Below, piece after piece: positions 52,816 through 55,547 of a stretch of DNA of 64,000 nucleotides; within the stretch, counting starts at the first letter, position 1, and each line of letters starts with the position of its first letter. The translations under genes were made by a program, and so were the position numbers. Below the pieces are notes generated by a model. It made no database searches and was not told the DNA's origin. It saw nothing but the letters and a program-made list of their open reading frames with translations. The stretch is from Escherichia coli (GTDB lineage Bacteria > Pseudomonadota > Gammaproteobacteria > Enterobacterales > Enterobacteriaceae): assembly GCF_003334355.1 (NCBI RefSeq), contig NZ_QOWP01000003.1; one strand, given 5' to 3'.

Positions 52816-53372
52816 TGATGGGAAAACTGATTTGGTTAATGGGGCCGTCCGGCTCCGGGAAAGACAGCCTGCTGGCGGAACTCCGCCTGCGGGAACAAAC
52901 TCAGTTACTGGTGGCGCATCGCTACATCACGCGCGATGCCAGCGCCGGAAGTGAAAACCATATCGCCCTGAGCGAGCAGGAGTTTTTTACCCGCGCGGGG
53001 CAAAATCTGTTGGCCTTAAGCTGGCACGCTAACAGTCTGTATTATGGCGTCGGCGTCGAGATTGATCTCTGGCTGCACGCCGGATTCGACGTGCTGGTCA
53101 ACGGCTCACGCGCCCATCTGCCGCAGGCGCGGGCGCGCTATCAATCGGCGCTGCTGCCCGTCTGTTTACAGGTTTCGCCGGAGATCCTCCGCCAGCGCCT
53201 GGAAAACCGTGGCCGTGAAAACGCCAGTGAAATTAACGCCCGCCTGGCGCGCGCCGCCCGCTATACTCCACAGGATTGCCATACGCTCAACAATGACGGC
53301 AGCCTGCGCCAGTCGGTCGACACGCTGCTGACGCTGATCCATCAGAAGGAGAAACACCATGCCTGCTTGTGA
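52815..53372 (+). CDS. phnN: Ribose 1,5-bisphosphate phosphokinase PhnN
   Basis: ORF track 185 aa; P-loop GPSGSGKDS; start overlaps phnM stop (TGATG). Confidence 0.93.
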
Positions 53373-53793
53373 GCTTCGCCCGGCCACGCAGTACGACACC
53401 GACGCGGTTTACGCGCTGATTTGTGAGCTAAAACAGGCGGAGTTTGACCACCACGCGTTTCGCGTGGGTTTTAACGCCAATCTGCGCGACCCAAACATGC
53501 GCTACCATCTGGCGCTGCTTGATGGCGAAGTTGTCGGCATGATCGGCCTGCATTTGCAGTTTCATCTGCATCATGTCAACTGGATCGGCGAAATTCAGGA
53601 GTTGGTGGTAATGCCGCAGGCGCGCGGTCTGAACGTCGGCAGTAAGTTACTGGCGTGGGCAGAAGAAGAAGCCCGCCAGGCCGGGGCCGAAATGACCGAA
53701 CTTTCGACCAACGTGAAGCGCCACGACGCGCACCGTTTCTATCTGCGCGAAGGCTACGAGCAGAGCCACTTCCGCTTCACCAAGGCGCTGTAA
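53359..53793 (+). CDS. phnO: Aminoalkylphosphonate N-acetyltransferase PhnO (GNAT)
   Basis: ORF track 144 aa; GNAT fold; 14-nt overlap with phnN. Confidence 0.92.
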
Positions 53794-53794
53794 C

Positions 53795-54553
53795 ATGAGC
53801 CTGACCCTCACGCTCACCGGCACCGGCGGCGCACAGGGCGTTCCGGCATGGGGCTGCGAGTGTGCGGCCTGCGCCAGAGCGCGGCGCTCGCCGCAGTATC
53901 GCCGCCAACCGTGCAGCGGCGTAGTGAAGTTTAACGACGCAATCACCCTGATCGACGCCGGGCTGCACGATCTCGCCGATCGCTGGTCGCCCGGATCGTT
54001 CCAGCAGTTTTTGCTGACGCATTATCATATGGATCACGTCCAGGGGCTGTTTCCGCTGCGCTGGGGCGTTGGCGATCCGATCCCGGTTTACGGCCCGCCG
54101 GATGAACAGGGCTGCGACGATCTGTTTAAACATCCGGGCCTGCTTGATTTCAGCCACACGGTGGAACCGTTTGTGGTGTTTGATTTGCAGGGGTTACAGG
54201 TCACGCCCCTGCCGCTCAACCACTCAAAACTGACCTTCGGTTATCTGCTGGAAACGGCACACAGCCGGGTGGCGTGGCTGTCTGACACCGCAGGCTTGCC
54301 GGAAAAAACGCTGAAATTTTTACGCAATAATCAGCCGCAGGTAATGGTGATGGATTGCAGTCACCCGCCGCGCGCGGATGCACCGCGTAATCACTGTGAT
54401 TTAAATACCGTGCTTGCGCTGAATCAGGTTATCCGCTCGCCACGGGTGATTCTGACCCATATCAGCCACCAGTTTGATGCGTGGCTGATGGAAAACGCAC
54501 TACCGTCAGGGTTTGAGGTGGGGTTTGATGGGATGGAGATTGGGGTGGCGTGA
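53795..54553 (+). CDS. phnP: Phosphoribosyl 1,2-cyclic phosphate phosphodiesterase PhnP (metallo-beta-lactamase fold)
   Basis: ORF track 252 aa; HxHxDH motif ([11 protein letters not shown]); last gene of the phn cluster. Confidence 0.93.
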
Positions 54554-54569
54554 TGAGAGGGAATGTGCG

Positions 54570-54680
54570 CGCTGGCCCCCTCACCCTAACCCTCTCCCCA
54601 GAGGGGCGAGGGGACCGATTGTGCTCGATATTGAATATTGCGCTCGTTTTCTCCCTCTCCCCATTGGGGTGAGGGGCGAT
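54570..54680. repeat. Two copies of a GC-rich palindromic intergenic repeat (box C-like; name uncertain)
   Basis: CCCCTCACCCTAACCCTCTCCCCAGAGGGGCGAGGGGACC (about 54575-54616) and CTCCCTCTCCCCATTGGGGTGAGGGGCG (about 54651-54679), each CCCTCTCCCC-N3-GGGGnGAGGGG; related inverted copy at 27565-27600. Confidence 0.5.
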
Positions 54681-54699
54681 GCCTGCTCCATACCCAACC

Positions 54700-55029
54700 T
54701 CATCGCCCATACTCATCTTCCATTCTCCGCTCTTCATCCTCCAGTTGCCGACGCTCCTGATCAAGCTGGCGCTGGCGATCGTCCAGCTGCCTGCGGCGAT
54801 CTTCAAACTGGCGGCGGCGGTCGTCATATTGTCTGCGCCGATCGTCGCTCACTTCACGCTGCCAGCCGTCGTCGCGCGAATCTTCATAGTCTCGCCCACG
54901 GTCAGGGTTATAAGCGTCATTAATCGCCTGCTGAATATTGCCAATGGTGTCGTCGATAATATCGGCCTGGGCCGGAACGGTGGACAGCGTGAGCAGGGTG
55001 AATAAAAGAAATAGCGGAAAGCGTTTCAT
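54700..55029 (-). CDS. yjdP: YjdP, secreted low-complexity Arg/Asp/Glu-rich repeat protein
   Basis: ORF track 109 aa; signal peptide MKRFPLFLLFTLLTLSTVPAQA followed by charged repeats (DDRRRQYDDRRRQFEDRRRQLDDRQRQLDQERRQLEDEERR); recognised as YjdP. Confidence 0.85.
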   Translation of the reverse strand: MKRFPLFLLFTLLTLSTVPAQADIIDDTIGNIQQAINDAYNPDRGRDYEDSRDDGWQREVSDDRRRQYDDRRRQFEDRRRQLDDRQRQLDQERRQLEDEERRMEDEYGR

Positions 55030-55097
55030 TAGCCAACCTCAAAAAGAAACTCTATCCACATTAATCATTACTCATCCATGCAAGTAGTGGATGAATC

Positions 55098-55547
55098 TCA
55101 ATTTCTCCGCTGCTCTATTGCCGTAATCGCCTCCACGCGTTGTTGATGACGACCGCCTTCGTACTGTGCGCCCAGCCACGCATCCACAATCATTTTTGCC
55201 AGTTCGAGGCCAACCACTCGTGAACCAAAAGCCAGCACGTTGGTGTCGTTATGCTGCCGCGAAAGTTGCGCGGAATAAGGTTCGCTACAGACGACCGCGC
55301 GAATTCCGGCAAACTTGTTCGCCGCTATCGAAATACCGACGCCAGTACCACAAATCAAAATCCCGCCATCAACCTCTCCGCCAGCAACAGCCAGTGCGAC
55401 TTGACTGGCGTAATGTGGATAATCAGTACGCTCTGACGACCAGGTTCCTTTATCAATCACTTCAACGCCACGCTCAACTAAATGTGCCACTATTTCATGT
55501 TTTAAAATGAAACCGACATGATCACAGCCAAATGCAATCTTTTTCAT
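55098..55547 (-). CDS. rpiB: Ribose-5-phosphate isomerase B / allose-6-phosphate isomerase
   Basis: ORF track 149 aa (MKKIAFGCDHVGF...); RpiB/LacAB family; divergent from rpiR. Confidence 0.95.
   Translation of the reverse strand: MKKIAFGCDHVGFILKHEIVAHLVERGVEVIDKGTWSSERTDYPHYASQVALAVAGGEVDGGILICGTGVGISIAANKFAGIRAVVCSEPYSAQLSRQHNDTNVLAFGSRVVGLELAKMIVDAWLGAQYEGGRHQQRVEAITAIEQRRN

What the first reader, a model, noticed from the sequence alone, without database searches (positions are those of the whole stretch)
54570..54680. Dispersed GC-rich palindromic repeat family: two copies after phnP and an inverted copy between melA and melR
About 54575-54616 and 54651-54679 each contain CCCTCTCCCC-N3-GGGGnGAGGGG. 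The segment 27565-27600 (GTCCCCTCGCCCCTCTGGGAAGAGGGTGA) is a near-exact reverse complement of 54585-54616. These are distinct from the REP/BIME elements elsewhere in the window. I believe they belong to a described minor E. coli repeat family but cannot name it with confidence. Their placement beside regulatory regions (mel control region, the end of the phn operon facing yjdP) suggests possible roles as terminators, protein-binding sites or recombination substrates.
Basis: seen in the sequence. Interest (0 to 1): 0.35.

Follow-up and report, generated by a model that had tools for sequence, protein, structure and literature searches.

The report
Known BoxC triplex-motif repeats
The three GC-rich palindromes are copies of the long-known E. 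coli BoxC repeat (also called PIT or TMECO), one intact and two that have lost a block; they have no demonstrated regulatory role and mainly make their surroundings prone to small deletions.

Summary
Three copies of CCCTCNCCCC-N3-GGGGNGAGGG sit in the window (54590, 54653, 27573) against 0.01 expected by chance. All are intergenic.

The family is already described: BoxC (Bachellier/Hofnung, 1990s), also called PIT elements (Hoyne and Maher 2000, 2002) and TMECO (Holder et al. 2015).

- **Copy 1 (54577-54612, minus strand)** is letter for letter TMECO no. 22 of Holder's Table 1. It is a complete three-block type-A unit.
- **Copy 2 (54640-54676, plus strand)** is a type-B unit that has lost 12 bp between its two G blocks. 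Strain ECamp083 still carries the intact unit.
- **The mel copy (27559-27602, plus strand)** is a type-A unit with the same kind of loss. It lies in the spacer between MelR site 1' and the CRP site of the melR promoter. It is absent from the Citrobacter, Klebsiella and Kosakonia genomes I sampled.

The phnP-yjdP spacer has at least seven length alleles among 5,426 E. coli genomes, with breakpoints inside the repeat blocks. The mel relic never varies in length.

I found no intrinsic-terminator features, no Rfam family and no sign of constraint. This is ordinary and already known, so interest is low.

The parts
54577..54612 (-). Complete BoxC/TMECO core of type A with one mismatched triplet ('A mm'). 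On the minus strand it reads CCCTCGCCCC-TCT-GGGGAGAGGG-TTA-GGGTGAGGGG. Block 1 is 54603-54612, block 2 is 54590-54599, block 3 is 54577-54586.
   Evidence: Exact reverse complement of TMECO no. 22 (MG1655 4,314,285-4,314,320) in Table 1 of Holder 2015. The coordinates were checked against NC_000913.3. Holder's supplement places no. 22 between yjdP and phnP.
54613..54627 (-). Conserved flank on the hairpin side of the type-A unit. Plus strand GACCGATTGTGCTCG; minus strand CGAGCACAATCGGTC.
   Evidence: The same G.GC.C....GTC flank precedes block 1 in all 12 type-A units compared.
54564..54576 (-). Flank on the third-block side of the type-A unit. Minus strand GGCCAGCGCGCAC. It is retained in the short alleles.
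   Evidence: It resembles the (gaaca)GGCCAGCA..G.GCG flank of TMECO 7, 11, 13 and 23. It is present in strains H105 and 2017.09.02CC and in Escherichia sp. E2593.
54628..54639 (.). AT-rich spacer (ATATTGAATATT) between the two divergently oriented units.
   Evidence: It is lost together with the inner blocks in the 21AH006 and O157:H7 alleles.
54640..54676 (+). Truncated type-B BoxC unit. Leader GCGCTCGTTTTCT (54640-54652), block 1 CCCTCTCCCC (54653-54662), loop ATT, and one fused G block GGGGTGAGGGG (54666-54676). 12 bp that would separate blocks 2 and 3 are missing.
   Evidence: Strain ECamp083 has GGTTTTCT-CCCTCGCCCC-ATT-GGGGAGAGGG-CCG-GGGTGAGGGG at the same place. The GTTTTCT leader is shared by the type-B units at hrpB-mrcB, ygfF-gcvP, alx and lldD-trmL.
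27559..27602 (+). Truncated type-A BoxC unit in the melA-melR spacer. 5' flank ATACTCGGAGAGTC (27559-27572), block 1 CCCTCGCCCC (27573-27582), loop TCT, a single G block GGGAAGAGGG (27586-27595), then T and the 3' flank GAAAAC. It spans about -93 to -50 relative to the melR start point.
   Evidence: 27 of 28 nt identical to the type-A consensus. The 5' flank fits the type-A flank, and the 3' flank gaaaaccgtg is identical to that of TMECO 19. It is absent from Citrobacter, Klebsiella and Kosakonia. Positions relative to the melR promoter follow from the CATAAT -10 element at 27640-27645 and the distances given in PMC2377442.

Best explanation
The three elements are members of the BoxC repeat family, also called PIT elements or TMECO. 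A full unit has one C-rich block and two G-rich blocks of about 9-10 nt: CCCTCNCCC-loop-GGGNGAGGG-N3-GGGNGAGGG. Blocks 1 and 2 form a Watson-Crick hairpin. As an isolated single strand, block 3 folds back to make a purine-motif intrastrand triplex.

The phnP-yjdP spacer holds a type-A and a type-B unit head to head. The type-B unit in K-12 and the type-A unit at mel have each lost one G block by a 12-bp deletion between the two directly repeated G blocks.

The most likely behaviour is not a cis-regulatory function. The units are structure-prone, internally repetitive DNA that promotes replication slippage or microhomology-mediated deletion.

Shown here: identity, anatomy, family size, the allele series and its breakpoints, and absence from other genera at mel. 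Taken from the literature: triplex formation in vitro, no triplex detected in vivo, no promoter or terminator activity. Inferred: slippage as the mechanism, and deletion rather than insertion as the direction of change.
For: Identity:
- Copy 1 equals TMECO no. 22 exactly.
- The published consensus is met on every specified base.

Family:
- A 47-nt query of copy 1 hits all 5,426 complete E. coli genomes. The median is 19 places per genome, with 21 in MG1655. Only 54 of 94,046 places are on plasmids.
- Published counts are 23 TMECO units, or 22-32 BoxC copies of 50-56 bp.
- Types A and B have their own conserved flanks, and all three window copies carry them.

Instability:
- The phnP-yjdP interval occurs in at least seven lengths: 359, 347, 296, 277, 243, 235 and 228 bp for a 347-bp query.
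- Only 3,594 of 5,424 genomes cover at least 80% of that query.
- Every breakpoint lies in or at a block. Examples are the 9-bp direct repeat GAGGGGCGA in O157:H7 and TGAGG in Escherichia sp. E2593.
- ECamp083 keeps the intact A+B pair, which at most 204 of 5,426 genomes have.

Internal control:
- The mel relic has only two blocks. Its region is full-length in 5,399 of 5,401 genomes, and every listed full match spans 482 bp.

No constraint:
- The relic differs at 16 of 45 positions between K-12 and ST131, against 12 of 153 and 4 of 70 in the flanking regulatory DNA.

Literature (PMC4666352):
- CD and NMR show a triplex for type-A and type-B oligonucleotides.
- TMECO loci are more rearranged than control loci.
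- Paired units tend to collapse to a hairpin.
Against: - The in vivo DMS footprint in Holder 2015 did not detect a triplex, so the structure that drives instability is unproven. Plain direct-repeat slippage would give the same alleles.
- The direction of change at phnP-yjdP is not settled. The 26-27-bp spacers of B2 strains and of Escherichia sp. E2593 could be ancestral empty sites rather than deletions.
- The exact core recurs in Alpha-, Beta- and Gammaproteobacteria. That is hard to reconcile with purely neutral junk and hints at some selected or mobile property.
- Allele frequencies are estimated from an evenly spaced sample of 40 rows, not from a full count.
Confidence: 0.88

Rival explanations
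1. The hairpins act as transcription terminators or as 3'-end stabilisers, as REP elements do, for the convergent phnP and yjdP transcripts.
For: The units fill the 146-bp gap between two convergent genes, and no other terminator-like site is found there. The RNA hairpins are stable: -23.2 and -32.3 kcal/mol for copy 1, and -18.6 and -16.3 kcal/mol for copy 2.
Against: No U tract follows any hairpin on either strand. Holder et al. report that Hoyne and Maher 2002 found no terminator or promoter activity for PIT elements. About 17% of sampled E. coli rows and Escherichia sp. E2593 have a 26-27-bp spacer with no unit at all, and others keep only fragments. No Rfam family matches.
Confidence: 0.07
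2. The mel copy is a functional part of the mel control region. It would be a protein-binding site or a structural spacer needed for MelR-dependent repression or CRP-dependent activation of melR.
For: It lies between MelR site 1' (about 27527-27544) and the CRP2 site (27600-27621). Its 3' flank GAAAAC overlaps the first three bases of CRP2. Its length is invariant in E. coli.
Against: It is absent from the Citrobacter, Klebsiella and Kosakonia mel spacers. The Citrobacter spacer still has a CRP2-like site, TTGCGCCTCAATTCTCAGTC. It is the most diverged stretch of the spacer between E. coli lineages, at 36% against 6-8%. Plasmid pJW15 expresses melR from a promoter whose upstream limit is -59, which removes most of the relic.
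Confidence: 0.04
3. The units are non-autonomous mobile elements of MITE type. The 119 bp extra in K-12 at phnP-yjdP is then an insertion into an empty site, with a 5-bp target duplication.
For: There is a presence/absence polymorphism. K-12's extra 119 bp is bounded by direct CCTCA repeats (54579-54583 and 54698-54702) where Escherichia sp. E2593 has a single copy. The A+B pair forms long terminal inverted repeats. The exact core occurs in distant proteobacterial lineages, often in inverted pairs.
Against: The 'duplication' is part of the element's own block 3 (GGGTGAGG) and of the yjdP stop region, as expected for microhomology-mediated deletion. The short alleles keep the type-A outer flank GGCCAG.GCGCAC. 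The H105 and E2593 junctions differ by 2-3 nt. The intermediate alleles can only be deletions. Only 54 of 94,046 copies are on plasmids. Holder et al. found no link to transposons, phages or plasmids.
Confidence: 0.12
4. The similarity is a chance resemblance of GC-rich sequence.
For: None beyond the low complexity of the blocks.
Against: Three hits against 0.01 expected. The mel copy is 27 of 28 nt identical to the family consensus and shares its flanks. The match to the published element is exact.
Confidence: 0

Closest known systems
BoxC repeats of E. coli (Bachellier, Clement, Hofnung 1999 survey; listed as 56 bp and 32 copies, or 50 bp and 22 copies, in PMC2267715)
   Same: GC-rich imperfect palindrome, intergenic, about 20-30 copies per genome, core plus conserved flanks of about 50-60 bp. 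The window copies carry both core and flanks.
   Different: Nothing for copy 1. Copies 2 and 3 lack one G block.
TMECO, the intrastrand triplex motif of E. coli (Holder et al. 2015, PMC4666352), equivalent to the PIT elements of Hoyne et al. 2000 and Hoyne and Maher 2002
   Same: Copy 1 is TMECO no. 22, type A mm. The A+B inverted pairing, the collapse to hairpins and the variable neighbourhoods described there are all seen at phnP-yjdP.
   Different: Copy 2 and the mel copy fail the three-block consensus, so they are not in Holder's list of 23. They are degenerate relatives. The K-12 pair is divergent (first blocks inward), like TMECO 17+18. The other four K-12 pairs are convergent.
REP/BIME elements
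   Same: Short intergenic palindromes, often between convergent genes, sometimes in inverted pairs.
   Different: Unrelated sequence. REPs number in the hundreds, bind IHF and gyrase, and have an associated RAYT transposase. None of this is known for BoxC (abstracts listed; established knowledge).
H-DNA and mirror-repeat triplex sequences of eukaryotes
   Same: Purine/pyrimidine-asymmetric blocks able to form a triplex, linked to breakage and deletions (discussion in PMC4666352).
   Different: Here all three strands of the triplex come from one strand (intrastrand). No triplex was detected in vivo.

Membership tests
BoxC / PIT / TMECO | Three-block consensus CCCTCNCCC-N3-6-GGGNGAGGG-N3-GGGNGAGGG | tested here: met
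   Copy 1 (54577-54612, minus strand) meets it exactly and equals TMECO no. 22.
BoxC / PIT / TMECO | The same three-block consensus, applied to copy 2 (54653-54676) and to the mel copy (27573-27595) | tested here: not met
   Only blocks 1 and 2 are present. They are filed as truncated derivatives on other grounds: ECamp083 has the intact unit at the copy 2 site, and type-specific flanks are present at both copies.
BoxC / PIT / TMECO | Second loop TTA (type A) or CCG/TCG (type B), each type with its own flanks | tested here: met
   Copy 1 has the TTA loop and the GTC 5' flank. The copy 2 site has a CCG loop in ECamp083 and the GTTTTCT leader in K-12. The mel copy has the type-A 5' flank and the gaaaac 3' flank.
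BoxC / PIT / TMECO | Multicopy, chromosomal, strictly intergenic | tested here: met
   Median 19 places per genome in 5,426 genomes, with 99.9% on chromosomes. All window copies, and the 11 other MG1655 loci fetched, lie outside annotated genes.
BoxC / PIT / TMECO | Frequent arrangement as an inverted type-A plus type-B pair | tested here: met
   The phnP-yjdP spacer has a type-A unit (minus strand) and a type-B unit (plus strand) 40 nt apart.
BoxC / PIT / TMECO | The G-rich strand folds into a purine-motif intrastrand triplex in vitro | not testable with these tools
   Shown by CD and NMR for type-A mm oligonucleotides of this sequence class in PMC4666352. ViennaRNA models hairpins only.
BoxC / PIT / TMECO | Elevated local rearrangement among strains | tested here: met
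   At least seven length alleles at phnP-yjdP. This is not seen at the two-block mel relic.
REP/BIME | REP consensus palindrome (Y, Z1 or Z2 types) | not tested
   No REP model was run. By eye the block sequences do not resemble the REP consensus as I recall it (GCCGGATGCGGCG...). The literature treats BoxC and REP as separate families.
Rho-independent terminator | GC-rich hairpin followed directly by a T tract | tested here: not met
   No terminator-like site at any copy. The tails are ACCGATTG, CGATGCCT, GCCAGCGC and AGAAAACG.

The most novel reading that the evidence does not exclude
The BoxC/TMECO core could be the recognition or structural module of a so far unidentified mobilisation system, much as REPs relate to RAYT transposases. 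Three observations allow this reading. The exact 26-base core occurs in Alpha-, Beta- and Gammaproteobacteria inside lineage-specific longer repeats. K-12 carries 119 bp at phnP-yjdP that is bounded by a 5-bp direct repeat and absent in other strains. The K-12 mel copy is close to consensus, while the B2 copy of the same relic has diverged at 36% of its positions, which would fit ongoing copying or ectopic gene conversion.
Probability: 0.1. Interest if true: 0.6.

Novelty: already known. Interest (0 to 1): 0.08.

Why it matters
It matters little beyond correct annotation. RefSeq NC_000913.3 marks no feature at these sites, so readers keep rediscovering them.

Two small points add to the published picture:
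- The window offers a natural contrast. A multi-block pair varies widely in length across 5,426 genomes, while a two-block relic never varies in length. This fits instability that depends on the repeated blocks rather than on the hairpin alone.
- The well-studied mel control region contains an Escherichia-specific BoxC relic in the spacer next to the melR CRP site. The relic appears dispensable there.

Tried and rejected
- **'Two-block plus GAAAAC' subfamily.** I first read copy 2 on the wrong strand and thought copies 2 and 3 shared a tail. The ECamp083 allele shows copy 2 is plus-oriented and its 'tail' is the type-B leader. Dropped.
- **mel copy as a hybrid.** I considered a type-B leader plus type-A flank left by collapse of a convergent pair. 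It remains possible. However, the type-A 3' flank gaaaaccgtg of TMECO 19 matches the mel copy directly, so a single type-A unit with fused G blocks is simpler.
- **CRP2 half-site of the melR promoter derived from the repeat.** Not supported. Citrobacter has a CRP2-like site without any BoxC.
- **Rfam search of 54300-55100 at E-value up to 10.** Only chance-level microRNA-type hits at 10-17 bits, against gathering thresholds of 37-137.
- **Promoter and terminator scan.** Nothing at the copies.
- **Scan of species-representative genomes.** It shows breadth but gives no census.
- **Outgroups for the phnP-yjdP locus.** I obtained only one cryptic-clade Escherichia, so the direction of change remains open.

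Full report
**1. Where the window comes from**

The window is E. coli K-12. Bases 53500-55500 are 100% identical to MG1655-type records. The window runs opposite to the standard MG1655 orientation. Checked against NC_000913.3, window 54577-54612 corresponds to 4,314,320-4,314,285. Gene positions are phnP ending at 54553 (plus strand), yjdP at 54700-55029 (minus strand), melA starting at 27391 (minus strand) and melR at 27674-28582 (plus strand).

**2.

- 54590-54613 and 54653-54676 are an 88% direct repeat 63 nt apart.
- 27570-27596 is the reverse complement of 54586-54612 with one mismatch.
- The motif with up to 3 mismatches occurs three times in the window, against 0.01 expected.
- All six exact 9-nt blocks in the 64 kb belong to these three elements.
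- All three elements are intergenic.

**3. Identity**

A full-text search led to Holder et al. 2015 (PMC4666352). Their TMECO consensus is CCCTCNCCC-N3-6-GGGNGAGGG-N3-GGGNGAGGG. They state that the motif was first described as BoxC in the 1990s and rediscovered as the PIT element by Hoyne, Maher and colleagues in 2000.

Table 1 lists 23 units in MG1655. No. 22 (4,314,285-4,314,320, type 'A mm') is CCCTCGCCCCTCTGGGGAGAGGGTTAGGGTGAGGGG. That is the exact reverse complement of window 54577-54612. Their supplement places no. 22 between yjdP and phnP. A 2008 survey lists BoxC as 50-56 bp with 22-32 copies (PMC2267715).

**4. Independent census**

A 47-nt query around copy 1 matched all 5,426 complete E. 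coli genomes. The median was 19 places per genome (range 1-34), with 21 in an MG1655 record. Only 54 of 94,046 places were on plasmids.

Hits fell in Polaromonas, Candidatus Contendobacter, Xanthomonas, Alphaproteobacteria and Hyphomicrobiales MAGs, and others. They were often in inverted pairs and always carried lineage-specific flanks. This agrees with the published spread over more than 260 genomes.

**5. Anatomy of the units**

I fetched eleven other MG1655 loci using Holder's coordinates and compared 12 type-A and 6 type-B units.

- Type A (TTA second loop) has a conserved 5' flank, G.GC.C....GTC. Its 3' flank is GAAAAG or GAACAG..CCAGC.
- Type B (CCG or TCG second loop) is preceded by GC.C.GTTTTCT.

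In the window:
- Copy 1 has both type-A flanks (54613-54627 and 54564-54576).
- Copy 2 has the type-B leader (54640-54652).
- The mel copy has a type-A 5' flank (27559-27572). It is followed by gaaaaccgtg, identical to the 3' flank of TMECO 19 at pstA.

**6. Copies 2 and 3 are truncated units**

Strain ECamp083 carries, at the copy 2 position, GGTTTTCT-CCCTCGCCCC-ATT-GGGGAGAGGG-CCG-GGGTGAGGGG. This is a complete type-B unit. K-12 lacks 12 bp of it, so blocks 2 and 3 are fused.

The phnP-yjdP spacer is therefore a divergent A+B pair, like TMECO 17+18, with the B unit damaged in K-12. At most 204 of 5,426 genomes keep the intact B unit.

The mel copy shows the same lesion in a type-A unit: one G block, then the normal 3' flank.

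**7. Strain polymorphism at phnP-yjdP**

A 347-bp query across the spacer is covered at 80% or more in only 3,594 of 5,424 genomes. An evenly spaced sample of 40 records gave these match spans:

| Match span | Example | Sample rows |
|---|---|---|
| 347 bp | K-12 type | 22 (21 at 99% identity or more) |
| 359 bp | ECamp083 | 1 |
| 296 bp | 21AH006 | 1 |
| 277 bp | O157:H7 | 2 |
| 243 bp | L7_ETEC | 1 |
| 235 bp | EF5-18-41 | 5 |
| 228 bp | B2 strains such as H105 and APEC O2:K1:H7 | 7 |

The one remaining sample row matched only a BoxC copy elsewhere in its genome.

Alignment shows nested deletions whose ends lie in the blocks:
- 21AH006 joins block 1 of unit A to block 3 of unit B.
- O157:H7 is joined at the 9-bp direct repeat GAGGGGCGA.
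- L7_ETEC keeps one block.
- The 228-bp alleles keep none.

A cryptic-clade Escherichia (sp. E2593) has a 26-bp spacer, GGGCGGTGAGGGGGCCAGTGCGCAC. K-12's extra 119 bp is bounded by direct TGAGG repeats. One is the yjdP stop region and the other is block 3.

I favour deletion over insertion at about 65%, for two reasons. The short alleles retain the type-A outer flank, and the intermediate alleles can only be deletions. The direction of change is not proven.

**8. The mel copy**

The mel region is full-length in 5,399 of 5,401 genomes, and every listed full match spans 482 bp.

I mapped the regulatory sites from Samarasinghe et al. 2008 (PMC2377442). The paper gives the -10 element CATAAT (27640-27645), CRP2 about 41 bp upstream of the melR start point, MelR site 2 at -174.5, and a melAB start point 237 bp away. 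That places the melR start point at about 27652, CRP2 at 27600-27621 and MelR site 1' at about 27527-27544.

- The relic sits in the spacer between site 1' and CRP2. Only its flank GAAAAC touches CRP2.
- Plasmid pJW15 in that paper expresses melR from a promoter with an upstream limit of -59, which excludes most of the relic.
- Outgroup spacers reached through MelR homologues (Citrobacter, Klebsiella, Kosakonia and one unnamed) lack the relic. Citrobacter still has a CRP2-like site.
- Between K-12 and ST131 the relic differs at 16 of 45 positions, against 12 of 153 and 4 of 70 in the flanks.

I see no evidence of a sequence-specific function there.

**9. Function**

- No promoter-like or terminator-like sites occur at the copies.
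- No Rfam family matches.
- The hairpins are stable as RNA and as DNA, but no T tract follows them.
- The literature, as reported by Holder et al., finds no promoter or terminator activity, a block to DNA polymerase in vitro only, triplex formation by CD and NMR in isolated strands, and no triplex footprint in vivo. TMECO loci are more variable than control loci.
- My allele series reproduces that last point at this locus in a hundredfold larger genome set. It adds the contrast with the length-stable two-block relic at mel.

**10. Verdict**

The family guess is correct, and the name is BoxC, also PIT or TMECO. The regulatory and terminator suggestions are not supported. The recombination-substrate suggestion is supported. 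The finding is already known, so interest is low.

One item remains unexplained. The K-12 mel relic is nearly identical to the family consensus, while the B2 version is heavily diverged within an otherwise conserved spacer of identical length (note).

Noticed in passing
window 27392-27673, compared with L010 and L011: The whole melA-melR spacer of B2-type strains (ST131, APEC IMT5155, GN02350) is about 10% diverged from K-12 at identical length. The divergence is concentrated (36%) in the BoxC relic, and the K-12 relic is close to the family consensus. This could reflect ectopic gene conversion, local hypermutability or an old imported haplotype.
   Followed up: partly
window 28905-52000 and 53000-53039: The record NZ_CP032667.1, labelled MG1655, is 404 bp shorter than the window somewhere in 28905-52000. 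It also differs within 53000-53039.
   Followed up: no
window 53500-55500, compared with NZ_AP027902.1 (hit H1): Strain 2018-11-1BCC has an IS5-family insertion inside this stretch: the match is split in two pieces over 3,066 bp. I did not check where it lies relative to the BoxC pair.
   Followed up: no
L027-L058 (Polaromonas MAG): Dozens of triplex-core copies. One subfamily is embedded in a longer conserved repeat, agtgaattggacggctctca-core-attgagcgttctgactgtca.
   Followed up: no
L076-L098 (unclassified MAG GL140): Two core subfamilies, each with about 20 nt of conserved flank on both sides. This suggests larger repeat units built around the same core.
   Followed up: no
NC_000913.3 at all BoxC loci fetched (L013-L018, L145-L150): The RefSeq K-12 record lists no repeat feature at any BoxC site I fetched.
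   Followed up: yes
window 54698-54702 and 54579-54583: The yjdP stop codon lies inside CCTCA. This 5-mer recurs within block 3 of copy 1, and the two copies bound the 119 bp that is absent in Escherichia sp. E2593.
   Followed up: partly
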